The notes under the pieces were generated by a model, which searched no databases, was not told the origin of the DNA, and was given only the letters and a program-made list of their open reading frames with translations. This document shows, piece by piece, positions 11,277 to 18,073 of a stretch of 64,000 nt of DNA. Position numbers and translations under genes: made by a program. Source of the stretch: Shigella phage Sf17; sequence record MF327004; one strand, written 5' to 3'. Every line of letters starts with the position of its first letter. Position 1 is the first letter of the stretch.

Positions 11277-12692
11277 ATGAGCGAATTATTTAAGCACTCG
11301 CATTTACATGCAGGTTTAACTGAAAATGGTGCTGTTAACCACACCTCTTCAATGTCTGCACTGGTAGATTTCTACAAAGCTGCTGGTTCAAGCAGAACAA
11401 ATGTAGAGGTTCTTCCAAACTTGTTTTACAAGGCAATGCGAGAAGATATTGATGTAGCAGTTCGAATCCTGTTACATATGCGAGATGCACGAGAAGGTAT
11501 GGGTGAGCGTAAAGCGTTCCGTTATACTCTTACTAAAGCAATCTCTGACGGGATTCTTGATGAGTTCCAAGTATTACGTATCATGGACAAGATTTCTGAT
11601 TTAGGTCGTTATGATGACTTTAAAATCTTTGTTGGTACACGTTACGAAACAGATGCTTTCAAGCATTTAGAATCGGCACTGTTAGACCCTGCAACATCGG
11701 CTCTGGCAGCAAAATGGTTACCACGAGTAAAATCACGACACATGCGTTTTGTTCGTCGTTTCTGTAAGTTTGCAAATCTTTCAGAGAAGCAGTATCGAGT
11801 TCTTCTGTCAGCACTGTCTGACACTGTTGAACAAAAGATTTCAGCAAATGAGTTCGGAGAGATTGATTACAGCAAGCTTCCTTCACTGGCTGCTGCACGT
11901 TATCAAAAACTCTTCAGTCGTAAAGATGGTGAGCGTTATGCAGCATACATTGCAGCACTGACTAAAGGTGAGACAAAGATTAATGCTGGTGCAGTCTACC
12001 CTTATGACATTACAAAGTCAGTCGGTTATGGTAATGCAACCGTTGCAAATGAGCAGTGGAAAGCTTTACCAAACTGGATGAAAGAGGGTGAGAACATTCT
12101 GTGCATGGCAGATGTATCTTCATCTATGACTTGGGAGCGACATGGTTCTGTTACAGCGCTAGACATTGGTGTATCTTTAGCCCTGTACGTTTCAGAACGT
12201 AATACAGGTTGCTTTAAAGATGAATTGATGGTTTACTCTAGCAGACCTCACTTCATCACATTGAGTGGTGATTTACAGACTCGCTTACGTCAAGTGAAGA
12301 GTCATGTAGAGTATGGTTCAACTGACCTACAAGCTGCTTTTGCAAGAATCCTTGAGATTGGTGTTAAAAACAACTTGACTCAGAAAGAGATGCCTAGTAA
12401 GCTTATCATCTTCTCTGATATGCAGTTTAATCAGGTTGATGGAGCAGATGGTCGTACTAACTTTGAAGCAATTCAAGAAAAGTACAAGAAAGCTGGATAT
12501 GAGATGCCACAACTGGTATTCTGGTACTTAGCAAACCGTAACGGTACTTGCGAAGTGTCTGTAAAGGATAACGGTGTAGCGATGGTATCTGGTTTCTCTC
12601 CAGCCACTTTAAAAGCTTTGCTTGGTGGTGAGAAGTTTGACCCTATCAGCGTAATGCTCAAAGCAGTAATGGTTGAACGCTACGATTGGTAA
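11277..12692 (+). CDS. von Willebrand factor A (vWA) domain protein with MIDAS motif; N-terminal ~270 aa unassigned (possibly TROVE/Ro60-like, unverified)
   Basis: DxSxS motif in CMADVSSSMTWERHG followed by vWA-like alternation of hydrophobic strands; 471-aa ORF. Confidence 0.55.
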   Translation: MSELFKHSHLHAGLTENGAVNHTSSMSALVDFYKAAGSSRTNVEVLPNLFYKAMREDIDVAVRILLHMRDAREGMGERKAFRYTLTKAISDGILDEFQVLRIMDKISDLGRYDDFKIFVGTRYETDAFKHLESALLDPATSALAAKWLPRVKSRHMRFVRRFCKFANLSEKQYRVLLSALSDTVEQKISANEFGEIDYSKLPSLAAARYQKLFSRKDGERYAAYIAALTKGETKINAGAVYPYDITKSVGYGNATVANEQWKALPNWMKEGENILCMADVSSSMTWERHGSVTALDIGVSLALYVSERNTGCFKDELMVYSSRPHFITLSGDLQTRLRQVKSHVEYGSTDLQAAFARILEIGVKNNLTQKEMPSKLIIFSDMQFNQVDGADGRTNFEAIQEKYKKAGYEMPQLVFWYLANRNGTCEVSVKDNGVAMVSGFSPATLKALLGGEKFDPISVMLKAVMVERYDW

Positions 12693-12710
12693 AAAGTTTT
12701 AAAAAGGGTA

Positions 12711-12739
12711 TTGACAAAGTGTTTAATACCCTTTAATAT
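12711..12739 (+). promoter_or_regulatory. putative sigma70-like promoter embedded in a hairpin
   Basis: TTGACA 12711-12716, 17-bp spacer, TAATAT 12734-12739; flanked by inverted repeat AAGGGTATT/AATACCCTT. Confidence 0.45.
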
Positions 12740-12800: not shown

Positions 12801-12830
12801 TTGACAGACACTAAAAAATAGTGTTATAGT
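12801..12830 (+). promoter_or_regulatory. putative sigma70-like promoter for the tRNA array
   Basis: TTGACA 12801-12806, 18-bp spacer, TATAGT 12825-12830, about 28 nt before first tRNA. Confidence 0.5.
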
Positions 12831-12857
12831 TGTTACATAGGTTGTTAAAAAGATTAT

Positions 12858-12937
12858 CTCCGTTTAGCTCAGTTTGGTTTAGCAGCACTTGCTTTGGGAG
12901 CAAGGGGTCGAAGGTTCAAATCCTTCAACGGAGACCA
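12858..12937 (+). tRNA. tRNA-Pro (anticodon TGG)
   Basis: Manual fold: acceptor CTCCGTT/AACGGAG, anticodon loop tt-TGG-ga, T-arm GAAGGTTCAAATCCTTC, encoded CCA. Confidence 0.55.
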
Positions 12938-12944
12938 AATTATA

Positions 12945-13020
12945 TTCCCGTAGACAAATTAGGTAAAGTCAACACCCTTTCAAGGTGTGGTTTGAGGGTT
13001 CAAGTCCCTTCGGGAATGCC
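12945..13020 (+). tRNA. tRNA-Glu (anticodon TTC)
   Basis: Acceptor ATTCCCG/CGGGAAT, anticodon stem ACACC/GGTGT with loop ct-TTC-aa, T-loop TTCAAGT, CCA. Confidence 0.6.
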
Positions 13021-13027
13021 AGTTTTG

Positions 13028-13100
13028 ACAGAAGACCAATTACAGCAAACAAACTTTTCAATTTCGCGCATAGAAATCCAAAAAAGATTTGGTCTGGTCA
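13028..13100 (+). repeat. structured repeat element R1 (candidate small RNA, not a tRNA)
   Basis: Conserved 5-prime cAGAAGACCaaTTACAGCAAACA and 3-prime tttGGTCTGGTca ends that can pair (AGACCAA/TTGGTCT); AT-rich interior. Confidence 0.45.
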
Positions 13101-13108
13101 TTAAGAAT

Positions 13109-13185
13109 TGCGGGTATAGAGAAAGGGTGTCTCACATGTCTCATTAGCATGTTATCGGTAGGTTCGACTCCTACACCCGCCTCCA
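13109..13185 (+). tRNA. tRNA-Met (anticodon CAT)
   Basis: Acceptor with 6 bp plus terminal mismatch, anticodon loop ct-CAT-ta, T-arm GTAGGTTCGACTCCTAC, CCA. Confidence 0.45.
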
Positions 13186-13190
13186 AATTT

Positions 13191-13260
13191 ACAGAAGGCC
13201 GTTTACAGCAAACACTTAAAATTTTTTATAGGCAAAAAATGAAAAGATACGGTCTGGTAA
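13191..13260 (+). repeat. structured repeat element R2
   Basis: Same conserved ends as R1 (cagaaGGCCGTttacagcaaaca ... atACGGTCTGGTaat). Confidence 0.45.
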
Positions 13261-13269
13261 TACTAACAT

Positions 13270-13346
13270 GGTTAGGAAGCACATAAGGCATGTGCGGTCG
13301 GCTGTTAACCGAATGGTACAGGGTTCGAATCCCTGACTAACCGCCA
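13270..13346 (+). tRNA. tRNA-Asn (anticodon GTT), unusual D-arm
   Basis: Anticodon loop ct-GTT-aa, T-arm CAGGGTTCGAATCCCTG, acceptor ACTAACC-G-CCA; D-region forms 5-bp hairpin GCACAtaaggcaTGTGC. Confidence 0.45.
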
Positions 13347-13410
13347 AGATTTGGGAGAGAAGCGATTGCTCACCGATTTGTAAGGTGCAAGTCCTTAGCC
13401 TGAATAGAAT
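13347..13410 (+). other. tRNA-like fragment (T-arm-like AAGGTGCAAGTCCTT without acceptor or CCA)
   Basis: Contains T-arm-like hairpin but no complementary acceptor strands were found. Confidence 0.25.
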
Positions 13411-13415
13411 AAAAT

Positions 13416-13503
13416 GCGTCGTTATCCCGTAGATGGAAGCGGTGGTGACTGTAAATCACTTGTCATTATGACTCGGGAGGTTCGACTCCTTCACGGCGCA
13501 CCA
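13416..13503 (+). tRNA. tRNA-Tyr (anticodon GTA), long variable arm
   Basis: Acceptor GCGTCGT/ACGGCGC, anticodon loop ct-GTA-aa, extra arm, T-arm GGAGGTTCGACTCCTTC, CCA. Confidence 0.5.
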
Positions 13504-13509
13504 AATAAA

Positions 13510-13586
13510 GGTTATGTAGTTTAACTGGTCAAAATACCTCCCTGTCACGGAGGATGATGAGGGTTCGAATCCCTTCGTAACCGCCA
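13510..13586 (+). tRNA. tRNA-Asp (anticodon GTC)
   Basis: Acceptor GGTTATG/CGTAACC, anticodon stem CCTCC/GGAGG with loop ct-GTC-ac, T-arm GAGGGTTCGAATCCCTT, CCA. Confidence 0.55.
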
Positions 13587-13616
13587 AATTTGAGAGGGCT
13601 TTTTAGCCCCTCCCTT

Positions 13617-13648
13617 AAAGAGTTCTTACGAGTATTCTTTAAAGGAGC
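13617..13648 (+). repeat. palindromic spacer element cttaaagaGTTCTTACGAGtattctttaaagg
   Basis: Related copies at 14541-14570 and 16778-16805. Confidence 0.4.
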
Positions 13649-13724
13649 AGAAGACCAAATACAGCAAGCAATTTTAATATTTCAAGCCAATTTAATTTGA
13701 AAAATTTAAAACTTGGTCTGGTTC
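13647..13724 (+). repeat. structured repeat element R3
   Basis: gcAGAAGACCAAatacagcaagca ... acttGGTCTGGTtcc. Confidence 0.45.
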
Positions 13725-13734
13725 CAACAATTTT

Positions 13735-13865
13735 ACAGAAGACCGTTTACAGCAAACAATAAACAATCTATTTCTCTGGTAAAGAAAAGGCGAAGGTTCG
13801 ATTCCTTCACACGTTACGGCGTGTTGGTGTAATGGAAGCACTTAAGATAAATACGGTCTGGTAAT
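13735..13865 (+). repeat. structured repeat element R4 (long variant containing a tRNA T-arm-like hairpin GAAGGTTCGATTCCTTC)
   Basis: Same conserved ends (cagaAGACCGTttacagcaaaca ... atACGGTCTGGTaat); ~110-nt interior includes a perfect T-arm mimic and hairpin ACACGttacggCGTGT. Confidence 0.45.
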
Positions 13866-13868
13866 CCT

Positions 13869-14001
13869 CTTTGCAGTGACTTATGGAGCTAACCAGTCGT
13901 CCCATGAGTGCCGAAGAGTCTCTTGAGCATGATTCTAGATTAGCTTACTAAGAGATGACTCTACAAACCCTTTAGCAAGGTTTGCGTAGGTTACTGCAAA
14001 G
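13869..14001 (+). ncRNA. candidate structured small RNA S1 (closed by 9-bp helix CTTTGCAGT/ACTGCAAAG)
   Basis: Terminal 9-bp inverted repeat about 115 nt apart plus internal hairpins (GAGTCTCTT...AAGAGAtGACTC; CAAACCctttagcaaGGTTTG); no ORF, no tRNA fold. Confidence 0.35.
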
Positions 14002-14011
14002 ATGATTTAAT

Positions 14012-14087
14012 GGAAGTGTAGCAGAATGGTGATGCGGCAGACTTTTAATCTGACAGGCGACGGGTTCGAATCCCTCCACTTCTACCA
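14012..14087 (+). tRNA. tRNA-Lys (anticodon TTT)
   Basis: Acceptor GGAAGTG/CACTTCT, anticodon loop ct-TTT-aa, T-loop TTCGAAT, CCA. Confidence 0.5.
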
Positions 14088-14092
14088 AATTC

Positions 14093-14159
14093 GCCCCTTA
14101 ACTGAAGAACACATGCGCGGCTGGAAACACCCACTCAATCATTTCTCTACAAAGGGGCA
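14093..14159 (+). other. hairpin-bounded spacer element (GCCCCTT ... AAGGGGC, ~55-nt interior)
   Basis: 7-bp inverted repeat enclosing a non-tRNA sequence. Confidence 0.3.
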
Positions 14160-14168
14160 ACTTATAAT

Positions 14169-14245
14169 GGTTCAGTCGCAGATAAGGTAATGCAAGGGTT
14201 TCATAAGCCCTATGAATGTGGGTTCGATTCCCACCTGAACCTCCA
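14169..14245 (+). tRNA. tRNA with anticodon CAT (Met, initiator or Ile2-type)
   Basis: Acceptor GGTTCAG/CTGAACC, anticodon loop tt-CAT-aa, T-arm GTGGGTTCGATTCCCAC, CCA. Confidence 0.55.
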
Positions 14246-14247
14246 AT

Positions 14248-14323
14248 GCTGGTATAGTTAAGAAGGTTATAACACTCCCCTGATAAGGGAATATCGGTGG
14301 TTCGATTCCACCTACCAGTACCA
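14248..14323 (+). tRNA. tRNA-Ile (anticodon GAT)
   Basis: Acceptor GCTGGTA/TACCAGT, anticodon loop ct-GAT-aa, T-arm GGTGGTTCGATTCCACC, CCA. Confidence 0.6.
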
Positions 14324-14337
14324 AATTTCATAAAGTT

Positions 14338-14367
14338 GTTGACATTAAGATGTGACCACTTTAAGAT
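14338..14367 (+). promoter_or_regulatory. putative internal sigma70-like promoter within the tRNA array
   Basis: TTGACA 14338-14343, 18-bp spacer, TAAGAT 14362-14367. Confidence 0.4.
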
Positions 14368-14571
14368 AACCTTAGTTTTCGTTAGCGTAGCGTCTATTTT
14401 AAAAACTTAAAAATAAATGCAAACGATAATGTTTTTCTGGCAGTAGCTTAATAGGCTAAACACCAGCAGGGTATTCCAACCCCCTGTTAAAGAATTTGGC
14501 GTACTAGCCCACGGTATGATTAATAAAGTGGGCATCTTTAAGGGTTTTCTAAGAGAGCCTTTAAAGATAAT

Positions 14572-14648
14572 GCACCCTTAGTTCAAACGGATAGAGCAAC
14601 GGTCTTCTAAACCGTCAGTTACAGGTTCGAATCCTGTAGGGTGTGCCA
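14572..14648 (+). tRNA. tRNA-Arg (anticodon TCT)
   Basis: Acceptor GCACCCT/AGGGTGT, D-arm TAGTTCAAACGGATAGAGC, anticodon loop ct-TCT-aa, T-arm CAGGTTCGAATCCTG, CCA. Confidence 0.6.
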
Positions 14649-14656
14649 ATTTTAAT

Positions 14657-14777
14657 GGTCAAGACAACACGAGTAAGTTATCTTGGATACGCGTTAAGAG
14701 ATAAACGAAAGTCGGATAGTTGCTGAAGGGTAGCTCCCTTTAATAGTAAGTAGGTTCGACTCCTACCTTGACTGCCA
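14657..14777 (+). other. tRNA-like element with T-arm and 3-prime CCA but ambiguous body (too long or missing anticodon arm)
   Basis: 3-prime GTAGGTTCGACTCCTAC-CTTGACT-G-CCA; candidate 5-prime acceptor at 14657 gives ~120 nt, at 14710 gives ~68 nt. Confidence 0.3.
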
Positions 14778-14942
14778 ATTAGTTAGCAGATTACTATGAC
14801 GACCTTTATGGGTCTCCGCATTGACTTGAAAGAGTCAATCTCATAAGGAGGTGGTCTGTATCTCATGTTTTCCAGAACATGTAAATAATCTGAGAAGAAG
14901 CTTGACAGTGTTGAGATAACAGGGTAAGCTTCGAAATATAGT

Positions 14943-15025
14943 ATGGGACGATGTTAAGACACTAAGGCATGTGCGTAAGCCTCCAAAACTTACTCAAAGG
15001 GGTTCGAATCCTCCGTCCCATGCCA
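14943..15025 (+). tRNA. tRNA, probably Trp (anticodon CCA) with mismatched closing pair
   Basis: Acceptor ATGGGAC/GTCCCAT, anticodon region GTAAGc-ctCCAaa-aCTTAC, T-loop TTCGAAT, CCA; D-region hairpin like the Asn tRNA. Confidence 0.4.
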
Positions 15026-15038
15026 AAGTCTTATTAGG

Positions 15039-15126
15039 GGTAGGTAGCGGCTAATGGAAGCCAAACTGTCTTGAAAACAGTTGCCATTGTAGAGATACGG
15101 TGAGGGTTCGACTCCTTTATCTACCG
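15039..15126 (+). tRNA. tRNA-Ser (anticodon TGA), long variable arm, no encoded CCA
   Basis: Acceptor GGTAGGT/ATCTACC, anticodon stem ACTGT/ACAGT loop ct-TGA-aa, long extra arm, T-loop TTCGACT. Confidence 0.55.
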
Positions 15127-15381
15127 CCTAATAAGATTTAAAGCTGAGACTATTTGTTCGAGCAAGTGTTTCAGGTTTCCTCTTCGTGTATTGGCGTACA
15201 CGGCACTGGTAAAGCACCTAGTAGGTGTCACGGAGAAGAGATAGTATCAAGCTCTCCAAAGGTTCTAGTCACCGGATTAAGCAAGACTATGCAAAGGCCA
15301 ATAGGTCTTTTTAGAGAATTGTTAAGGCATTTGATACCATTGTTGCTTTGGCGTCTTAGCAGTTCTCTACAAAGATTTAAT

Positions 15382-15458
15382 GCACCTATAGCCCAATTGG
15401 AAGAGGCAGCAGACTTAGAATCTGCTCAGTGTGAGTTCGAATCTCTCTAGGTGTACCA
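15382..15458 (+). tRNA. tRNA with anticodon TAG (Leu-type anticodon; short variable arm in manual fold)
   Basis: Acceptor GCACCTA/TAGGTGT, anticodon stem GCAGA/TCTGC loop ct-TAG-aa, T-loop TTCGAAT, CCA; 77 nt. Confidence 0.4.
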
Positions 15459-15465
15459 AATTAAT

Positions 15466-15541
15466 GCAGGTGTAGCAAAATGGTTATGCGGCTGACTCTT
15501 AATCAGTAAGACGATGGGTTCAATTCCCTCCACCTGTACCA
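15466..15541 (+). tRNA. tRNA, tentatively Lys (anticodon CTT)
   Basis: Acceptor GCAGGTG/CACCTGT, anticodon loop ct-CTT-aa, T-loop TTCAATT, CCA. Confidence 0.4.
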
Positions 15542-15547
15542 AACAAT

Positions 15548-15623
15548 GGGGATGTAGTTTACATGGTTAAAACATAAGTTTTGCAAACTTAAGTACAGGG
15601 TTCAATTCCCTGCTTCTCCACCA
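15548..15623 (+). tRNA. tRNA-Ala (anticodon TGC)
   Basis: Anticodon stem TAAGT/ACTTA loop tt-TGC-aa, T-arm CAGGGTTCAATTCCCTG, CCA. Confidence 0.55.
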
Positions 15624-15629
15624 ATTAGT

Positions 15630-15704
15630 GCATCCATAGTTTAAATGGGAAAATTACAGTCTTCCAAACTGAGGTTGAGGGTTCGATTCCCTCTGGATGC
15701 TCCA
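15630..15704 (+). tRNA. tRNA-Gly (anticodon TCC)
   Basis: Acceptor GCATCCA/TGGATGC, anticodon loop ct-TCC-aa, T-arm GAGGGTTCGATTCCCTC, CCA. Confidence 0.6.
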
Positions 15705-15710
15705 AATAAT

Positions 15711-15787
15711 GCTGCTTTCGTATAATTGGCTATTGCACATCCCTTGTAAGGATGGAGATGCAGGTTCGAGTCCTGTGAGCAGCACCA
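15711..15787 (+). tRNA. tRNA-Thr (anticodon TGT)
   Basis: Acceptor GCTGCTT/GAGCAGC, anticodon stem CATCC/GGATG loop ct-TGT-aa, T-loop TTCGAGT, CCA. Confidence 0.6.
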
Positions 15788-15792
15788 ATTTT

Positions 15793-15885
15793 GAGGTCAA
15801 GTGAAAGACCGCTTGAGTCAACTGAAGACCGTAACAAATTCCACGGAGTTGAGTTAGCGGCACAGCTTCAGACCTCTTCAAAGCT
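15793..15885 (+). ncRNA. candidate structured element S3 (nested inverted repeats GAGGTC...GACCTC and CTGAAG...CTTCAG)
   Basis: Non-tRNA spacer with nested helices; contains GAAGACCG word shared with R elements. Confidence 0.3.
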
Positions 15886-15892
15886 CGCTTAG

Positions 15893-15967
15893 TTTATATG
15901 GTAAAGCCCCATCCTTACAAGTTGGTGAAGAAGGTTCAAGTCCTTCAGCGAGTACCAAGTTCCAGTA
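15893..15967 (+). tRNA. tRNA-Val (anticodon TAC)
   Basis: Acceptor GCTCGCT/AGCGAGT, anticodon loop ct-TAC-aa, T-arm GAAGGTTCAAGTCCTTC, CCA. Confidence 0.55.
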
Positions 15968-15968
15968 T

Positions 15969-16046
15969 CCCAATTGGCAGAGGATGCAAGCTCAAACCTT
16001 GTATTAGTGACGGTTCGAATCCGTCTTGGAACACCAATTTTAGGAG
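15969..16046 (+). tRNA. tRNA with anticodon CAA (Leu-type anticodon; short variable arm in manual fold)
   Basis: Acceptor GTTCCAG/TTGGAAC, anticodon stem GCAAG/CTTGT loop ct-CAA-ac, T-arm GACGGTTCGAATCCGTC, CCA. Confidence 0.4.
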
Positions 16047-16052
16047 ATTCCT

Positions 16053-16265
16053 ATGAAGCCTTATGGTAGACATGGTAAAGTTGAAATTGCAAGTTGTGGC
16101 TGCTGTGCAGCACATGATGGTGAAGAAGATTATTACAAATGGCGTACAGACCATCGTAAACGCTTTCTCAGAAGAGATAAGAAGAGAGCTAGACAGGAAT
16201 CTCAAAAGGATATTGCAGAATTAGTTCAAATGGACAGAGCAGCAACCTACGAAGTTGTTAGTTAG
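16053..16265 (+). CDS. possible small basic protein (70 aa) whose 3-prime third overlaps tRNA-Arg; may be spurious
   Basis: AGGAGA ribosome-binding site 6 nt upstream of ATG; last ~17 codons lie inside tRNA-Arg(ACG). Confidence 0.25.
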   Translation: MKPYGRHGKVEIASCGCCAAHDGEEDYYKWRTDHRKRFLRRDKKRARQESQKDIAELVQMDRAATYEVVS

Positions 16266-16291
16266 GGGTTCGAATCCTCTATTCTGCACCA
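16215..16291 (+). tRNA. tRNA-Arg (anticodon ACG)
   Basis: Acceptor GCAGAAT/ATTCTGC, anticodon stem GCAAC/GTTGT loop ct-ACG-aa, T-loop TTCGAAT, CCA. Confidence 0.55.
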
Positions 16292-16309
16292 AATTTAATA
16301 GGTAACATT

Positions 16310-16537
16310 ATGTATAAACTCATAGTTGAAAAACATAAAGATGACCACAAGATTGAAACAGGTAGATTTGGAGATACTTTCTTTATAGCGGTTGGTTGGC
16401 AATGTGACCCGTTAGAAGTTAGAAAGATTGTTTATAACTTTGCTGGATTAGAACTTAAGCAAGCTATCTTCGAAACATCACTACCTGAAAATAAGGATAC
16501 TTGCAATAACGCATATATTCTTTCAAGAGTTCGTTAG
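16310..16537 (+). CDS. possible small protein (75 aa) between tRNA genes
   Basis: ORF fills the gap between two tRNAs; weak ribosome-binding site. Confidence 0.3.
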   Translation: MYKLIVEKHKDDHKIETGRFGDTFFIAVGWQCDPLEVRKIVYNFAGLELKQAIFETSLPENKDTCNNAYILSRVR

Positions 16538-16611
16538 GGGATTAGTTTACAAGGTTAAAACCTCGGTCTTTGAAATCGAAGAAGATGGTTCAATTCCATC
16601 ATCCCCCGCCA
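16536..16611 (+). tRNA. tRNA-Gln (anticodon TTG)
   Basis: Anticodon stem TCGGT/ATCGA loop ct-TTG-aa, T-arm GATGGTTCAATTCCATC, CCA; first acceptor pair mismatched. Confidence 0.5.
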
Positions 16612-16613
16612 AT

Positions 16614-16692
16614 GCTCCATTACTCCAATTGGCAGAGAGGCCAGATTTAAAATCTGTGTTATGTATCGGTTCGAATCCGATATGGAGTACCA
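16614..16692 (+). tRNA. tRNA with anticodon TAA (Leu-type anticodon; short variable arm in manual fold)
   Basis: Acceptor GCTCCAT/ATGGAGT, anticodon stem CCAGA/TCTGT loop tt-TAA-aa, T-arm ATCGGTTCGAATCCGAT, CCA. Confidence 0.4.
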
Positions 16693-16698
16693 AATATT

Positions 16699-16774
16699 AG
16701 CAGTATAGCATAACTGGCAATGCTCCAGCCTCTGAAGCTGAAAGATTAAGGTTCAAATCCTTATACTGCTGCCA
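16699..16774 (+). tRNA. tRNA-Gln (anticodon CTG)
   Basis: Acceptor AGCAGTA/TACTGCT, D-arm GCATaactggcaaTGC, anticodon loop ct-CTG-aa, T-arm TAAGGTTCAAATCCTTA, CCA. Confidence 0.55.
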
Positions 16775-16805
16775 CTTCTAAGGGTTCTTACGAGAGTCCT
16801 TAAAT

Positions 16806-16882
16806 GTGGCCTTATCATAAATGGATAATGACCCATGCTGTGAACATGGTCTATACGGGTTCGATTCCCGTAGGTCACCCCA
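16806..16882 (+). tRNA. tRNA-His (anticodon GTG)
   Basis: Acceptor GTGGCCT/AGGTCAC, anticodon stem CCATG/CATGG loop ct-GTG-aa, T-arm ACGGGTTCGATTCCCGT, CCA. Confidence 0.6.
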
Positions 16883-16888
16883 ATTTAA

Positions 16889-16966
16889 TAGCTCAATTAG
16901 CTTATATGGTTAAAGCGCGTGTCTGAAAAACATGAGAACAGGGTTCAAATCCCGATGGGCTACCAA
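16889..16966 (+). tRNA. tRNA, tentatively Phe (anticodon GAA); imperfect T-stem
   Basis: Acceptor TAGCTCA/TGGGCTA, D-stem GCTT/AAGC, anticodon loop ct-GAA-aa, T-loop TTCAAAT. Confidence 0.4.
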
Positions 16967-16981
16967 CTTTATAGGTGCATA

Positions 16982-17716
16982 ATGAAAGAGATGACAGAAC
17001 AAAGTAAAGAGATTTTTAATCTCCTTAAAGCTGGTAATGGTTTCTCAAACCCTCTTATTACTGGTGCAGCAGTTCTTGGTGGTACTATAGCTGCCTCTCA
17101 ATCATTAGTTAACTCAATTAGTTCTGTAACAGACCCAGCTACACAACAGATTTTAGTTGCTGCTGGACTGACAACAGCCTTATTAGGAAGCTTCACAACA
17201 AGCCTTGGAAGTACAACTTCAACGACAAGTACACTTACTGAGTATGGACAAAAGTCTGTAGATGAGTTTTCACAACGTATGCAAGTAGCCAAAGGTTACT
17301 CTAACGTTATGGGAGCAGCAGGTGAACAGGTTGGATGTACACCATTTAGCGGTATCATGGGCGTAGCTACCGAGTACGGTAATAAAGCGATGGATTTGAT
17401 TAATACCTCCATAGACGCTGTAAATGGCGTTCTAAGCGATTTGCAAGATGCAATCGACCAAGGACTAGATACAATCTCTGAACTCGCTACACAGGCCGTT
17501 ACAGCAATTAATGAGGGTATTGCAAAGATTACTGCATATGCTAATGAAGTAACTCAGATGATTGCAGATGAAGCAGCACTGATTGCAGAATACCTGAAAA
17601 CAAATATTAATGGTTTCCTTGCGAATGTTCTACCAAGCTGGTTTGATGATTCATGTAAAACTGGTGTGATTGATACTATCGCAACTCCAGAGATGAAAGA
17701 AGCTCTGAACAAATAA
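16982..17716 (+). CDS. hypothetical Ala/Thr/Ser-rich protein embedded in the tRNA array (start trimmed from 16919)
   Basis: ORF-track start at 16919 is a GTG inside the preceding tRNA; first ATG clear of the tRNA is 16982. Confidence 0.45.
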   Translation: MKEMTEQSKEIFNLLKAGNGFSNPLITGAAVLGGTIAASQSLVNSISSVTDPATQQILVAAGLTTALLGSFTTSLGSTTSTTSTLTEYGQKSVDEFSQRMQVAKGYSNVMGAAGEQVGCTPFSGIMGVATEYGNKAMDLINTSIDAVNGVLSDLQDAIDQGLDTISELATQAVTAINEGIAKITAYANEVTQMIADEAALIAEYLKTNINGFLANVLPSWFDDSCKTGVIDTIATPEMKEALNK

Positions 17717-17717
17717 T

Positions 17718-17810
17718 GGAAGATTAACCCTAAAAGGTAAGGGAGCAGTTTGCTAAACTGCCAGTAACCGAGAAATCGGCGTACCAGTTCAAGTCTGGTA
17801 TCTTCCTCCA
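17718..17810 (+). tRNA. tRNA-Ser (anticodon GCT), long variable arm
   Basis: Acceptor GGAAGAT/ATCTTCC, anticodon stem GCAGT/ACTGC loop tt-GCT-aa, extra arm, T-arm ACCAGTTCAAGTCTGGT, CCA. Confidence 0.6.
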
Positions 17811-17816
17811 AATTAT

Positions 17817-17892
17817 GTGTCGGTGTCAGAAATGGTTATGTGCCTGTCTGCAAAACAGGTTTATGAGGGTTCGAGTCCCTTCCGATACTCCA
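17817..17892 (+). tRNA. tRNA-Cys (anticodon GCA)
   Basis: Acceptor GTGTCGG/CCGATAC, anticodon stem CCTGT/ACAGG loop ct-GCA-aa, T-arm GAGGGTTCGAGTCCCTT, CCA. Confidence 0.6.
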
Positions 17893-17924
17893 ATTTATAT
17901 TAATATCTCTCTCAAAGTTATTAT

Positions 17925-17984
17925 GCCCTGCTATGAGTATTCTCCCTTTCGCTACCGGAGAGTATTTTTAGACAGGGCTTTTTT
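17925..17984 (+). terminator. rho-independent terminator closing the tRNA array
   Basis: Long hairpin GCCCTG...CAGGGC with inner stem, followed by TTTTTT. Confidence 0.6.
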
Positions 17985-18049
17985 ATAGAGTTATACTTTA
18001 TAGGAAGACCTATACAGTATGTCTCTGGCATACATTGTGGTTTCTCCTT

Positions 18050-18073
18050 GACGGTCTCTGCACCGTCTTTTTT
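18050..18073 (+). terminator. second rho-independent terminator before late operon
   Basis: GACGGT-ctctgc-ACCGTC followed by TTTTTT. Confidence 0.5.

What the first reader, a model, noticed from the sequence alone, without database searches (positions are those of the whole stretch)
12830..17900. Large tRNA array (about 29 genes) with its own promoters and terminator
About 29 cloverleaf-compatible genes were found by hand covering most amino acids, with promoters at 12801 and 14338 and tandem terminators at 17925-18073. Large phage tRNA arrays can compensate codon usage and can also counter host anticodon-nuclease defences, so the exact isoacceptor set matters.
Basis: partly seen in the sequence, partly recalled or inferred. 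Interest (0 to 1): 0.5.

Follow-up and report, generated by a model that had tools for sequence, protein, structure and literature searches.

The report
Phage tRNA array hiding Y-like RNAs
The large tRNA gene array is real but is an ordinary, already annotated feature of Felix-O1-like phages; the new point is that four small structured RNAs between its first tRNAs belong to an apparently undescribed RNA family that sits next to a Ro60-like protein gene in very different phages.

Summary
The window comes from a Mooglevirus (Ounavirinae), 99% identical to Shigella phage ESh20 and E. coli phage 3HA14. ARAGORN finds 26 tRNA genes on the + strand (12858-17892), and 25 reach Rfam's tRNA threshold. 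The 3HA14 record annotates the same 26, so the array is already known.

- 14943-15025 is a conserved, unannotated, non-canonical tRNA-Trp(CCA)-like gene. If it works, all 20 amino acids are covered.
- 14699-14777 is a degenerate tRNA-like remnant.
- 13792-13841 is not a tRNA. It is the permuted tRNA-like domain of a YrlA-type Y RNA.

The gene just upstream (11277-12692; DUF2828 plus vWA) folds like Ro60. Four conserved RNAs lie between the first tRNAs (13026-13100, 13189-13260, 13644-13725, 13733-13864). Each has a 7-bp stem, the motif UUACAGCAA, and CUG at the 3' side. A covariance model trained only on unrelated phages finds exactly these four in 64 kb.

The same RNA flanks DUF2828 genes, always on the gene strand, in IMG/VR, GTDB and GenBank phages. 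It is absent from an Ounavirinae phage that keeps the tRNA array but lacks the gene.

The promoters, the terminators and the codon-usage fit are all confirmed.

The parts
11277..12692 (+). Ro60-like protein gene (471 aa; DUF2828 helical domain plus vWA/DUF7788 with a DxSxS MIDAS motif)
   Evidence: Pfam PF11443 and PF25043. PHROG 850 'RNA-binding protein'. AF2 model pLDDT 88, pTM 0.89. The top 8 Foldseek PDB hits are all Ro60/TROVE over the full length, E 1e-8 to 4e-7. It is the ortholog of Bas63 gp130 (bioRxiv 10.1101/2024.10.10.617714).
12703..12734 (+). 12-bp hairpin just after the Ro60-like gene, overlapping a second promoter-like site (12711-12739)
   Evidence: -13.5 kcal/mol, z -3.5
12801..12830 (+). 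sigma-70-like promoter P1 (TTGACA-18-TATAGT, with TG extension)
12858..12937 (+). tRNA-Pro(UGG)
   Evidence: CCA encoded
12944..13021 (+). tRNA-Glu(UUC)
13026..13100 (+). Y-like small RNA copy 1: lower stem TGAC/GTCA, AGA/G internal loop, upper stem AGACCAA/TTGGTCT, motif TTACAGCAA
   Evidence: R1 model 31.0 bits, E 1.8e-5; fold; covariation
13109..13185 (+). tRNA-Met(CAU), with a 1-72 mismatch
   Evidence: (31.7 bits)
13189..13260 (+). Y-like small RNA copy 2: TTAC/GTAA, AGGCCGT/ACGGTCT, TTACAGCAA
   Evidence: R1 35.2 bits, E 1.4e-6
13270..13346 (+). tRNA-Asn(GUU)
13416..13503 (+). tRNA-Tyr(GUA), long variable arm, phage-type
   Evidence: Rfam only 22.3 bits; about 84% identical to the tRNA-Tyr of T2, RB14 and T5-like phages
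13510..13586 (+). tRNA-Asp(GUC)
13644..13725 (+). Y-like small RNA copy 3: GGAGC/GTTCC, AGACCAA/TTGGTCT, ATACAGCAA
   Evidence: R1 32.5 bits, E 7.4e-6
13733..13864 (+). Y-like small RNA copy 4 (YrlA-type). Same basal helix and TTACAGCAA motif, with an insert: T arm 13792-13808, closed acceptor-like helix 13809-13824, 2 nt, D-like arm 13827-13841
   Evidence: R1 27.8 bits, E 1.2e-4, with a 79-nt insert. Consensus fold shows 3-4 compensatory pairs in the acceptor-like helix. The insert scores 28.8 bits as tRNA.
14012..14087 (+). tRNA-Lys(UUU)
14169..14245 (+). tRNA-Met(CAU), second copy
14248..14323 (+). tRNA-Ile(GAU)
14339..14367 (+). sigma-70-like promoter P2 (TTGACA-17-TAAGAT)
   Evidence: -35 hexamer conserved in Bas63, and an equivalent TTGACA-17-TAATCT in Hena2
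14373..14530 (+). conserved structured leader or small RNA of unknown function downstream of P2
   Evidence: 90% identical in Felixounavirus and 79% in Kolesnikvirus Hena2; compensatory changes in two hairpins
14572..14648 (+). tRNA-Arg(UCU)
14699..14777 (+). degenerate tRNA-like element: acceptor-like stem, T arm and CCA, but no proper anticodon arm
   Evidence: ARAGORN only at relaxed threshold; present only in some Mooglevirus; fold
14943..15025 (+). non-canonical tRNA-Trp(CCA)-like gene: 7-bp acceptor stem, G73, CCA, loop CU-CCA-AA, T arm, and an aberrant D region
   Evidence: Anticodon stem GTAAG/CTTAC against AACGG/CCGTT, and D hairpin CAC/GTG against CTC/GAG, both compensatory. Not annotated in 3HA14 or Bas63.
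15039..15128 (+). tRNA-Ser(UGA); the only tRNA without an encoded CCA
15382..15458 (+). tRNA-Leu(UAG), short variable loop
15466..15541 (+). tRNA-Lys(CUU)
15548..15623 (+). tRNA-Ala(UGC)
15630..15704 (+). tRNA-Gly(UCC)
15711..15787 (+). tRNA-Thr(UGU)
15883..15957 (+). tRNA-Val(UAC)
15959..16036 (+). tRNA-Leu(CAA), short variable loop
16053..16265 (+). small ORF (70 aa, PHROG 10765) that runs into tRNA-Arg
16215..16291 (+). tRNA-Arg(ACG)
16310..16537 (+). small ORF (75 aa, PHROG 14202)
16536..16611 (+). tRNA-Gln(UUG)
16614..16692 (+). tRNA-Leu(UAA), short variable loop
16699..16774 (+). tRNA-Gln(CUG)
16806..16882 (+). tRNA-His(GUG), with G-1 and C73
16890..16965 (+). tRNA-Phe(GAA)
16979..17716 (+). 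DUF7217 protein gene (245 aa) inside the array
   Evidence: Pfam PF23854, E 4e-84; PHROG 2114; annotated in relatives
17718..17810 (+). tRNA-Ser(GCU)
17817..17892 (+). tRNA-Cys(GCA)
17925..17985 (+). intrinsic terminator 1: long hairpin followed by a U tract
   Evidence: -28.1 kcal/mol, z -5.1
18050..18073 (+). intrinsic terminator 2

Best explanation
Region 12801-18073 is the tRNA and small-RNA transcription cluster of a Mooglevirus, a Felix-O1-like myovirus. Two sigma-70-type promoters drive polycistronic transcripts that end at two intrinsic terminators.

The cluster holds 26 canonical tRNA genes covering 19 amino acids, 25 of them with an encoded CCA. It also holds one conserved non-canonical tRNA-Trp-like gene, one decayed tRNA-like remnant, three small protein genes and a conserved leader RNA.

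The tRNAs mostly carry U34 anticodons for A-ending codons, which this 39% G+C phage uses far more than its 51% G+C host. The simplest role (inferred) is to top up decoding and keep translation going when host tRNAs are limiting or attacked.

Four small RNAs of about 70-130 nt are interleaved with the first seven tRNAs, and they are not spacers. Each has a terminal 7-bp helix starting with A-G on the 5' strand and closing with C-U on the 3' strand, then a G. The single-stranded motif (U)UACAGCAA follows the 5' strand directly, and the apical part is variable. The fourth copy carries a permuted tRNA-like domain in the order T arm, closed acceptor helix, D arm, as in bacterial YrlA.

These RNAs belong to a family that is encoded beside DUF2828-type Ro60-like genes, on the same strand, in many unrelated phages. 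Here that gene lies immediately upstream (11277-12692).

The proposed mechanism is inferred, not shown. RNase P and the 3'-end tRNA processing enzymes would release the four RNAs from the tRNA precursor. The RNAs would then bind the Ro60-like ring through the stem and UUACAGCAA module, as Y RNAs bind Ro60/Rsr. The resulting particle would act in RNA surveillance or in countering host defence; the Bas63 ortholog gp130 counters the Ppl system.
For: The tRNAs:
- ARAGORN finds 26, and 25 reach Rfam's threshold.
- The same 26 are annotated in phage 3HA14, which is 99% identical.
- 25 of 26 encode CCA.
- The codon-usage contrast with E. coli fits the anticodon set.
- Promoters and terminators are confirmed.

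The Ro60-like protein:
- The AF2 model has pLDDT 88.
- The 8 best PDB matches are all Ro60/TROVE over the full length, including the Thermus phage phiLo Ro60.

The small RNAs in this window:
- Four copies fold the same way.
- The Ounavirinae-specific lower helix was not imposed by my search. It is 100% paired in 57 distinct sequences, and 3 of its 4 pairs covary.
- G-U pairs occur only in the + strand reading.
- Model R1 was built from 30 elements next to DUF2828 genes in non-Ounavirinae phages. With filters off it finds exactly these four in the whole 64-kb window on both strands: 27.8-35.2 bits, E 1e-4 to 1e-6. The next best hit scores 18.9 bits.

Linkage of the RNA to the gene:
- IMG/VR loci: 61 hits in 45 of 75 loci, all on the gene strand, about 90% within 700 nt of the gene.
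- An independent GTDB set: 46 hits in 31 of 80 loci, all 46 on the gene strand.
- GenBank phages: tandem triplets beside the gene in Listeria A511, Staphylococcus S-CoN_Ph8 and mycobacteriophage Rumpelstiltskin.
- Control: none in about 90 unrelated viral loci.
- Control: Erwinia phage Hena2 has the homologous tRNA array but no Ro60-like gene (tblastn best E 3) and no R1 element anywhere in its genome.

Y-RNA character:
- The consensus fold of copy 4 has an invariant T arm stacked directly on a covarying closed helix, then 2 nt, then a D-like arm with GG.
- Long members in other phages give sub-threshold but significant YrlA hits: 39.2 bits, E 4e-5; 38.9 bits, E 5e-5.
- Rumpelstiltskin matches the YrlA model core, positions 30-81.

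A preprint reports that Bas63 gp130 is Ro60-like, counters Ppl, and might have Y RNAs among the 'tRNA genes'.
Against: - There is no expression, processing or binding data. The link between RNA and protein rests on genomic association and analogy alone.
- Rfam's YrlA model does not hit copy 4.
- The motif GNCGAAN0-1G, proposed as the Ro-binding site of bacterial Y RNAs (PMC4201824), is absent. The partner module here is different.
- The protein has no sequence-level match to TROVE or to any PDB chain, so 'Ro60-like' rests on a predicted fold.
- The 6 inner pairs of the 7-bp stem were imposed by the descriptor that collected R1's training set, so covariation in those pairs is not independent evidence.
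- Only 31-45 of 75-80 DUF2828 loci show a hit with default filters.
- PhageMaP scored Bas63 tRNA-region genes as mostly non-essential.
Confidence: 0.7

Rival explanations
1. This is a plain tRNA array. The conserved hairpins between the first tRNAs are only precursor-processing or spacer structures, such as RNase E or RNase III entry sites or folding insulators. They would have no life of their own and no link to the upstream protein.
For: Each element sits 4-8 nt after a CCA end and 8-10 nt before the next tRNA. Spacer hairpins are common in phage tRNA clusters. Other spacer hairpins of unknown role exist in this same array.
Against: The same RNA occurs beside DUF2828 genes in phages that have no tRNA within 4 kb, for example L159, L167, L169, L171 and L173-L176. 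It is missing from Hena2, which keeps the homologous tRNA array but lacks the gene. An 11-bp bulged helix is too short for RNase III (own knowledge). An invariant 9-nt single-stranded motif and a YrlA-like domain are not needed for a spacer.
Confidence: 0.12
2. The stem and UUACAGCAA elements are cis-regulatory sites, such as operators, attenuators or stability elements, through which the Ro60-like protein or another factor controls expression of its own gene or operon. They would not be trans-acting Y-type RNAs.
For: They lie within a few hundred nt of the gene and always on its strand, either upstream or downstream. That is also the pattern expected for leaders or 3' UTR elements.
Against: They come in tandem sets of 2-5 with variable apical parts. 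Some carry whole tRNA-like or YrlA-like inserts. In this phage they lie up to 1.2 kb downstream of the gene, separated from it by tRNAs and a strong promoter. All of this fits separate small RNA genes better.
Confidence: 0.1
3. The Trp-like element at 14943-15025 is a decaying tRNA-Trp pseudogene or a non-charged tRNA mimic, so the phage does not supply tRNA-Trp.
For: ARAGORN and Rfam do not call it. It has a 10-nt connector and only a 3-bp D hairpin. TGG is used no more in the phage than in the host.
Against: It is conserved across Felixounavirus and Mooglevirus. Its anticodon loop CU-CCA-AA, G73 and CCA end are invariant, and both stems that vary show fully compensatory changes. A diverged homolog with the same loop exists in L158. 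Pseudogenes do not keep compensatory pairing.
Confidence: 0.35

Closest known systems
tRNA gene clusters of Felix-O1-like phages (Ounavirinae), as annotated in GenBank for 3HA14, Sf13-Sf19, Moogle, Michonne and Bas63/JohannRWettstein
   Same: Same genes in the same order at 92-99% identity. The 26 ARAGORN tRNAs are identical to the 3HA14 annotation.
   Different: Nothing differs for the tRNAs themselves. The records do not annotate the Trp-like gene or the four small RNAs, and they call the Ro60-like gene 'hypothetical'.
Bacterial and phage Y RNAs with Ro60/Rsr: YrlA and YrlB of Salmonella (Rfam RF02553; Chen et al. 2014, PMC4201824), and Yrl1/Yrl2 of Thermus phage phiLo (PMC12135203)
   Same: Small RNAs encoded next to a Ro60-fold gene on the same strand, often several per locus. 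The 5' and 3' ends pair in a stem with a conserved protein-binding-type module and a variable remainder. One member per locus carries a permuted tRNA-like domain: T arm, closed acceptor helix, D arm.
   Different: The protein belongs to the DUF2828 family, not Pfam TROVE, and has no detectable sequence similarity to solved Ro60 structures. The conserved RNA module is a stem plus UUACAGCAA plus CUG, not GNCGAA. The YrlA model stays far below its threshold. In this phage the RNAs are embedded in a tRNA operon rather than standing alone.
Class I RNAs of dictyostelid amoebae (Rfam RF01414; Kjellin et al. 2021, PMC7919456)
   Same: A 6-bp terminal stem whose structure is conserved but not its sequence. 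The stem opens with an invariant G that pairs with the C of a 3' CUG(U). The motif (CC)UUACAGCAA directly follows the 5' strand. The rest is variable and A/U-rich. The RNAs are about 60 nt and there are many paralogs. RF01414 turns up among the weak non-tRNA matches for most elements tested: 17.6-28.9 bits against a threshold of 41.5.
   Different: All scores are below threshold. The organisms (eukaryote against phage), the polymerase and the promoters all differ. The only direct binder reported in Dictyostelium is an RRM protein, Rnp1A. Whether Dictyostelia have a DUF2828 protein could not be checked.
T4 tRNA cluster with its stable 'species 1 and 2' RNAs (own knowledge, not tested)
   Same: Small stable non-tRNA RNAs co-transcribed with phage tRNAs and released by tRNA processing enzymes.
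   Different: No Ro60-like gene is known next to the T4 cluster, and no sequence relation was tested.

Membership tests
tRNA genes (Rfam RF00005) | Cloverleaf with T loop, called by an automated finder | tested here: met
   26 by ARAGORN. 25 of the 26 score at or above 29 bits in Rfam. Tyr scores 22.3 bits.
   13742-13816 scores 28.8 bits and lies inside a Y-like RNA. 14699-14777 and 14938-15025 are called only at relaxed ARAGORN thresholds.
tRNA genes (Rfam RF00005) | Expression, processing and aminoacylation | not testable with these tools
   Needs tRNA-seq or acid-urea northern blots.
Ro60/TROVE proteins | Ring of helical repeats plus a C-terminal vWA domain with MIDAS | tested here: met
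   The AF2 model matches 1yvr, 2i91, 2nvo, 9kop and 9l5y over 514-557 columns, with TM 0.45-0.64. DVSSS lies at residues 279-283.
Ro60/TROVE proteins | Sequence match to Pfam TROVE or to solved Ro60 | tested here: not met
   Pfam gives only DUF2828 and DUF7788. phmmer and a profile search find no PDB hit.
Ro60/TROVE proteins | Binds Y RNA or misfolded RNA | not testable with these tools
   Needs EMSA or RIP.
Y RNAs (YrlA type, RF02553) | Encoded within a few kb of the Ro60 gene on the same strand | tested here: met
   In the window the elements lie 334-1172 nt downstream of the gene on the same strand. The same holds across phages.
Y RNAs (YrlA type, RF02553) | tRNA-like domain with T arm, acceptor-like stem and D arm | tested here: met
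   Copy 4. Related loci and Rumpelstiltskin match the YrlA model core.
Y RNAs (YrlA type, RF02553) | GNCGAAN0-1G motif near the 5' end, and the Rfam gathering score | tested here: not met
   The motif is absent from the four copies. There is no YrlA hit in the window at E up to 10. The best hit in relatives is 39 bits against a threshold of 69.
Dictyostelid Class I RNAs (RF01414) | Short terminal stem with a 5' G, the 11-nt motif CCUUACAGCAA, and a 3' CUGU | tested here: inconclusive
   The features are present by inspection, but scores are 17.6-28.9 bits against a threshold of 41.5.
Dictyostelid Class I RNAs (RF01414) | DUSE promoter and dictyostelid genome context | tested here: not met
   These are phage loci, read here from a sigma-70-type operon.

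The most novel reading that the evidence does not exclude
The stem-UUACAGCAA-CUG RNAs are the cognate 'Y RNAs' of the DUF2828 branch of the Ro60 superfamily wherever that protein occurs. On this reading, the enigmatic Class I RNAs of Dictyostelium, reported as unique to dictyostelids, are the eukaryotic members of the same RNA family and work as partners of a DUF2828-type protein. One candidate is DDB_G0281243, the protein of unknown function pulled down with Class I RNA DdR-21 (bioRxiv 10.1101/2020.04.05.026054). A phage tRNA array would then give the first functional handle on Class I RNAs.
Probability: 0.25. Interest if true: 0.85.

Novelty: new variant of a known kind. Interest (0 to 1): 0.6.

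Why it matters
The tRNA array itself adds nothing new. The small RNAs do matter, for four reasons.

- They give a concrete, testable identity to the Y RNAs that the PhageMaP authors only guessed at for Bas63 gp130, a protein shown to counter the Ppl defence system.
- They define an RNA partner family for a widespread protein family with no assigned RNA. It occurs in 708 phage records, including Listeria A511/P100, KVP40, cluster L mycobacteriophages, and staphylococcal and enterococcal phages.
- They show that a Ro60-type particle can be wired directly into a tRNA operon. This suggests a role in tRNA quality control, or in protecting or repairing tRNA during infection.
- The shared signature with Dictyostelium Class I RNAs, if it is more than coincidence, would connect two fields.

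The unannotated Trp-like gene and the short-armed Leu tRNAs also matter for anyone tabulating phage isoacceptor sets against anticodon nucleases.

Tried and rejected
- **Rfam YrlA on the window.** No hit, even on copy 4 alone at E up to 10. The elements are therefore not filed as YrlA members.
- **Sequence searches of the protein against PDB.** Neither the single sequence nor the profile found anything. Only the fold search revealed Ro60.
- **Scan of IMG/VR for GAAGRCCNNNTACAGCAA.** Most of the 120 loci were single chance matches. They later served as a negative control.
- **The Ounavirinae-specific sequence AGAAGRCC...GGYCTGG in distant DUF2828 loci.** Nothing was found. A looser descriptor based on stem and motif was needed.
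- **Rfam at gathering thresholds on 15 DUF2828 loci.** Nothing was found, so no curated family covers these RNAs.
- **Weak tmRNA_permuted and alpha_tmRNA hits at 14263-14505.** These were set aside. They start in the T arm of tRNA-Ile, and ARAGORN finds no tmRNA.
- **Hairpins read as terminators.** Rejected, because no U tract follows them.
- **Hairpins read as DNA-level repeats or MITEs.** Rejected because of their strict strand bias and G-U pairs.
- **AlphaFold-database fold libraries.** They were unavailable, so I could not check for eukaryotic or Dictyostelium DUF2828 proteins.
- **Literature.** The two Wolin-lab reviews are not held. The supplements of Chen 2014 are not held. Text searches for the motif returned only siRNA noise.

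Full report
**What the window is.** The 5.4 kb around the finding is 99% identical to Shigella phage ESh20 and Escherichia phage vB_EcoM_3HA14. It is 92-98% identical to many other Mooglevirus genomes, and 80-90% identical to about 245 Felix-O1-like phages. The 3HA14 record annotates 26 tRNAs here, made with ARAGORN, at positions that correspond exactly to those I obtain.

**The observation.**
- ARAGORN finds 26 tRNA genes, all on the + strand, from 12858 to 17892.
- Rfam's tRNA model passes its threshold for 23 in the whole-window run. His and the first Met also pass in a narrower run. Only tRNA-Tyr stays below, at 22.3 bits.
- 25 of the 26 encode their CCA end, usually followed by AAT or ATT. 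tRNA-Ser(UGA) ends GCC-U.
- The T-loop pattern GTTCRANTC occurs 29 times on the + strand inside the array, against about 5 expected in the whole window.
- The promoter-like sites at 12801 (11 of 12, TG extension) and 14339 (10 of 12) are the best + strand matches. The second keeps its -35 hexamer in Bas63, and an equivalent site exists in Erwinia phage Hena2.
- The array ends at two intrinsic terminators: a 54-nt hairpin at 17925-17978 (-28.1 kcal/mol, z -5.1) followed by U6, and 18050-18067 followed by U6.

**The anticodon set.**
- The 26 genes cover 19 amino acids. Two are CAU tRNAs, and there is no Trp.
- I compared 69 long ORFs of the window (50 kb, 39% G+C) with 41 annotated E. coli K-12 genes (52% G+C).
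- The codons read directly by the phage tRNAs are those the phage over-uses: AGA 13.5-fold, ACA 5.1, TCA 3.6, AAG 2.8, TTA 2.0, GGA 1.95, CTA 1.7, CCA 1.7.
- This fits the usual codon-compensation reading. A role against anticodon nucleases cannot be tested from sequence.

**The three extra elements.**

(a) 14943-15025, a Trp-like gene.
- It has a perfect 7-bp acceptor stem (ATGGGAC/GTCCCAT), G73, a CCA end and a T arm.
- Its anticodon arm has the loop C[CUCCAAA]A, which is the canonical CU-CCA-AA loop of tRNA-Trp.
- Between Mooglevirus and Felixounavirus the anticodon stem changes from GTAAG/CTTAC to AACGG/CCGTT. A 3-bp D hairpin changes from CAC/GTG to CTC/GAG. Both changes are fully compensatory. 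The loop, G73 and the acceptor stem stay fixed across 13 distinct Ounavirinae variants.
- RNAfold gives a cloverleaf for both versions.
- The oddity is a 10-nt connector before the D hairpin, which is why the finders miss it.
- A diverged phage (L158) has a homolog with the same loop and a different D region. Hena2 has a canonical tRNA-Trp instead.
- I read it as a probably functional non-canonical tRNA-Trp, at about 0.5-0.6 confidence. It is not annotated in 3HA14 or Bas63.

(b) 14699-14777, a degenerate remnant.
- It has an acceptor-like stem, a T arm and CCA, but no anticodon arm.
- It occurs only in some Mooglevirus.

(c) The T arm at 13792-13808 belongs to a larger RNA, described below.

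**The upstream gene.**
- ORF 11277-12692 (471 aa) matches Pfam DUF2828 and DUF7788 and has a DVSSS MIDAS motif.
- It has no sequence-level match in the PDB.
- An AlphaFold model built from 35 homologs has pLDDT 88 and pTM 0.89.
- The model's eight best Foldseek matches in the PDB are all Ro60/TROVE over the full length. They include Xenopus Ro, Deinococcus Rsr and the Thermus phage phiLo Ro60, with E 1e-8 to 4e-7 and TM up to 0.64.
- This is already in the literature for the ortholog Bas63 gp130. The PhageMaP preprint reports its Ro60-like fold and shows that it counters the Ppl defence. [quoted passage not shown]
- The family occurs in 708 phage records. Some are annotated 'Ro-like RNA binding protein'.

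**Four conserved small RNAs.**
- A four-member repeat family lies between tRNA-Glu and tRNA-Lys, at 13026-13100, 13189-13260, 13644-13725 and 13733-13864.
- All four fold alike. There is a 4-5-bp lower helix, then an AGA/G internal loop, then a 7-bp upper helix (AGRCCNN/NNGGTCT). The single-stranded motif (T/A)TACAGCAA follows, and the apical part is variable and A/U-rich.
- In 57 distinct copies from Felixounavirus and Mooglevirus genomes the lower helix, which my search did not impose, is paired in every case. Three of its four pairs covary (UA/GC; UA/AU/GC/GU; AU/GC/GU). Sliding the partner columns destroys the pairing.
- The G-U pairs fit only an RNA read from the + strand.
- Each element starts 4-8 nt after a CCA end. 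Copies 1 and 2 end 8-10 nt before the next tRNA. Ordinary tRNA processing would therefore release them (inferred).

**Copy 4 is a YrlA-type RNA.**
- Across ten distinct Ounavirinae versions the consensus fold keeps the basal helix.
- An invariant T arm (GAAGG-TTCGATT-CCTTC) stacks directly on a closed 7-bp helix. That helix covaries: ACACG/CGTGT, ACTCG/CGAGT, ACCCTTC/GAAGGGT.
- Two nucleotides follow, then a D-like arm (GTGT-AATGGNA-GCAC).
- The order T arm, closed acceptor stem, 2 nt, D arm is the permuted tRNA-like domain described for bacterial YrlA (PMC4201824).
- Rfam's YrlA model does not reach this copy.

**The RNA family follows the gene, not the tRNAs.**
- A diverged 88-kb phage (L158, protein 46% identical) has four analogous elements in its tRNA array. 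Their stems differ (AGAGCAC/GTGCTCT, AGAGCAG/CTGCTCT, AGGACAC/GTGTCCT) but the motif is the same (TTCAGCAA). One has a T-arm insert.
- I then ran a descriptor search: a 6-bp stem directly 5' of N-T-N-CAGCAA, closed 8-160 nt downstream. I applied it to 75 IMG/VR loci that encode 40-46%-identical homologs. It gave about 100 hits against 15.6 in shuffles. Nearly all were on the gene strand, with stems opening with G and followed by TG.
- From 30 short members I built covariance model R1. None of the 30 comes from Ounavirinae.
- The outer A-U pair was not imposed by the descriptor. It is present in 28 of 30 members (AU 23, UA 5).
- With filters off, R1 finds exactly four significant matches in the whole 64-kb window on both strands. 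These are the four copies: 35.2, 32.5, 31.0 and 27.8 bits. The next hit scores 18.9 bits.

Tests of the linkage:

| Test set | Result |
|---|---|
| 910 kb of other viral loci | 16 hits, all in Felixounavirus-type contigs |
| 75 IMG/VR DUF2828 loci | 61 hits in 45 loci, all on the gene strand, about 90% within 700 nt of the gene |
| 80 GTDB contigs with homologs (independent set) | 46 hits in 31 loci, all 46 on the gene strand, mostly under 500 nt upstream |
| Listeria phage A511 | three in tandem just upstream of gp57 |
| Staphylococcus phage S-CoN_Ph8 | three just downstream of the gene |
| Mycobacteriophage Rumpelstiltskin | three just downstream of gp54 'Ro-like RNA binding protein' |
| Vibrio phage KVP40 | one weak hit |

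- The natural control is Erwinia phage Hena2, a Kolesnikvirus. It has a homologous 26-tRNA array, the DUF7217 gene and the conserved leader. It has no Ro60-like homolog anywhere in its 84-kb genome (best tblastn E 3) and no R1 element.
- Many DUF2828 loci with R1 elements have no tRNA within 4 kb.
- Long R1 members in other phages overlap sub-threshold but significant YrlA hits: 39.2 bits at E 4e-5, 38.9 bits at E 5e-5, and 31.4 and 28.7 bits.
- The Rumpelstiltskin middle element aligns to the YrlA core (T arm, helix, UA, D arm).
- Some R1 stems enclose an insert that scores as a full tRNA (L185 and L222).

**Interpretation.**
- Shown: the tRNA genes; a Ro60-fold protein gene; a conserved, covarying RNA family genomically locked to that gene family; and a YrlA-like domain in one copy.
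- Inferred: that the RNAs are released from the tRNA precursor, bind the protein through the stem and UUACAGCAA module, and act as Y RNAs do, by gating or tethering the ring to substrates or nucleases.
- Also inferred: that this underlies the anti-Ppl effect of gp130.
- The protein is not a Pfam TROVE member and the RNA is not an Rfam YrlA member. I therefore file the pair as a new variant of the Ro60/Y RNA kind, not as a member of those families.
- I found no paper or Rfam family that describes these RNAs. The library is incomplete.

**An unexpected resemblance.**
- For these elements Rfam repeatedly returns Dicty_Class_I_RNA (RF01414) among its weak non-tRNA matches. It is the top such match for copy 4 and the only one listed for L169. 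Scores are 22.2, 21.3 and 17.6 bits in the window, 28.9 in L169 and 18.9 in Rumpelstiltskin, against a threshold of 41.5.
- Class I RNAs are described as having a 6-bp terminal stem conserved in structure only. They have an invariant 5' G paired to the C of a 3' CUGU. The 11-nt motif CCUUACAGCAA lies next to the 5' strand, and the rest is variable. They are about 60 nt, and were reported to be unique to Dictyostelia (PMC7919456).
- The R1 consensus is aaAGGuUgcuUACAGCAA...gcAaCCUGau. It shares all three conserved features.
- One of four proteins pulled down with Class I RNA DdR-21 is DDB_G0281243, of unknown function. I could not obtain its sequence or check whether dictyostelids have a DUF2828 protein.
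- This remains a lead, not a finding.

**Verdict.**
- The locus is better described as a tRNA operon fused to a Ro60-like/Y-like RNA module.
- The RNA component of that module appears to be undescribed and is widely distributed.

Noticed in passing
15382-15458, 15959-16036, 16614-16692: All three tRNA-Leu genes are 77-79 nt with 4-7-nt variable loops, so they lack the long variable arm of bacterial tRNA-Leu. They keep A73, a 3-bp D stem and an 11-nt D loop. Hena2 and L158 have the same short Leu tRNAs.
   Followed up: partly
13416-13503: tRNA-Tyr scores only 22 bits in Rfam and is flagged 'pseudo' in the Henu11 and HP1 records. It is nevertheless about 84% identical to the tRNA-Tyr of T2, RB14, T5-like and rV5-like phages. 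This looks like a pan-phage tRNA-Tyr type.
   Followed up: partly
15039-15128: tRNA-Ser(UGA) is the only one of the 26 without an encoded CCA; it ends GCC-T. The relative Hena2 encodes its own tRNA nucleotidyltransferase.
   Followed up: no
14373-14530: A conserved RNA-like leader of about 160 nt lies directly downstream of promoter P2. It is 90% identical in Felixounavirus and 79% in Erwinia phage Hena2. Two hairpins show compensatory changes (CAGGG/CCCTG, TGAGG/CCTCA, TAGGG/CCCTA; GCCCAC/GTGGGC against TCCCG/CGGGG). Only weak tmRNA-type Rfam hits were found, and its function is unknown.
   Followed up: partly
13618-13642 and 16780-16804: Two copies of a small hairpin with the conserved loop TTCTTACGAG sit in tRNA spacers (family D15).
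   Followed up: no
13863-13883 with 13987-14007: A 21-nt inverted repeat, 86% complementary, encloses 103 nt between Y-like copy 4 and tRNA-Lys. This spacer is present only in Mooglevirus.
   Followed up: no
16053-16265, 16310-16537, 16979-17716: Three protein genes interrupt the array. A 70-aa ORF (PHROG 10765) has its 3' end overlapping tRNA-Arg. There is also a 75-aa ORF (PHROG 14202) and a DUF7217 protein, which also closes the Hena2 array. Relatives carry HNH endonuclease genes at other array positions.
   Followed up: partly
L185 3729-3833; L222 6518-6611: In other phages the same stem and UUCAGCAA module encloses an insert that scores as a complete tRNA (52.9 and 55.2 bits). The module can therefore flank tRNA-like, YrlA-like or simple hairpin inserts.
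   Followed up: partly
L234 (Listeria phage A511) 2652-2920; L236 4494-4706; L235 4446-4707: Well-studied phages carry unannotated tandem triplets of this RNA beside their DUF2828 gene: A511, a staphylococcal Sextaecvirus, and mycobacteriophage Rumpelstiltskin. In S-CoN_Ph8 small 'hypothetical protein' CDSs are annotated over them.
   Followed up: partly
13109-13185 and 14169-14245: There are two CAU-anticodon tRNAs. The first has a mismatched 1-72 pair and a low Rfam score. The second has a GGG/CCC anticodon stem. Which of them is the initiator, the elongator or a lysidine-type tRNA-Ile was not resolved.
   Followed up: no
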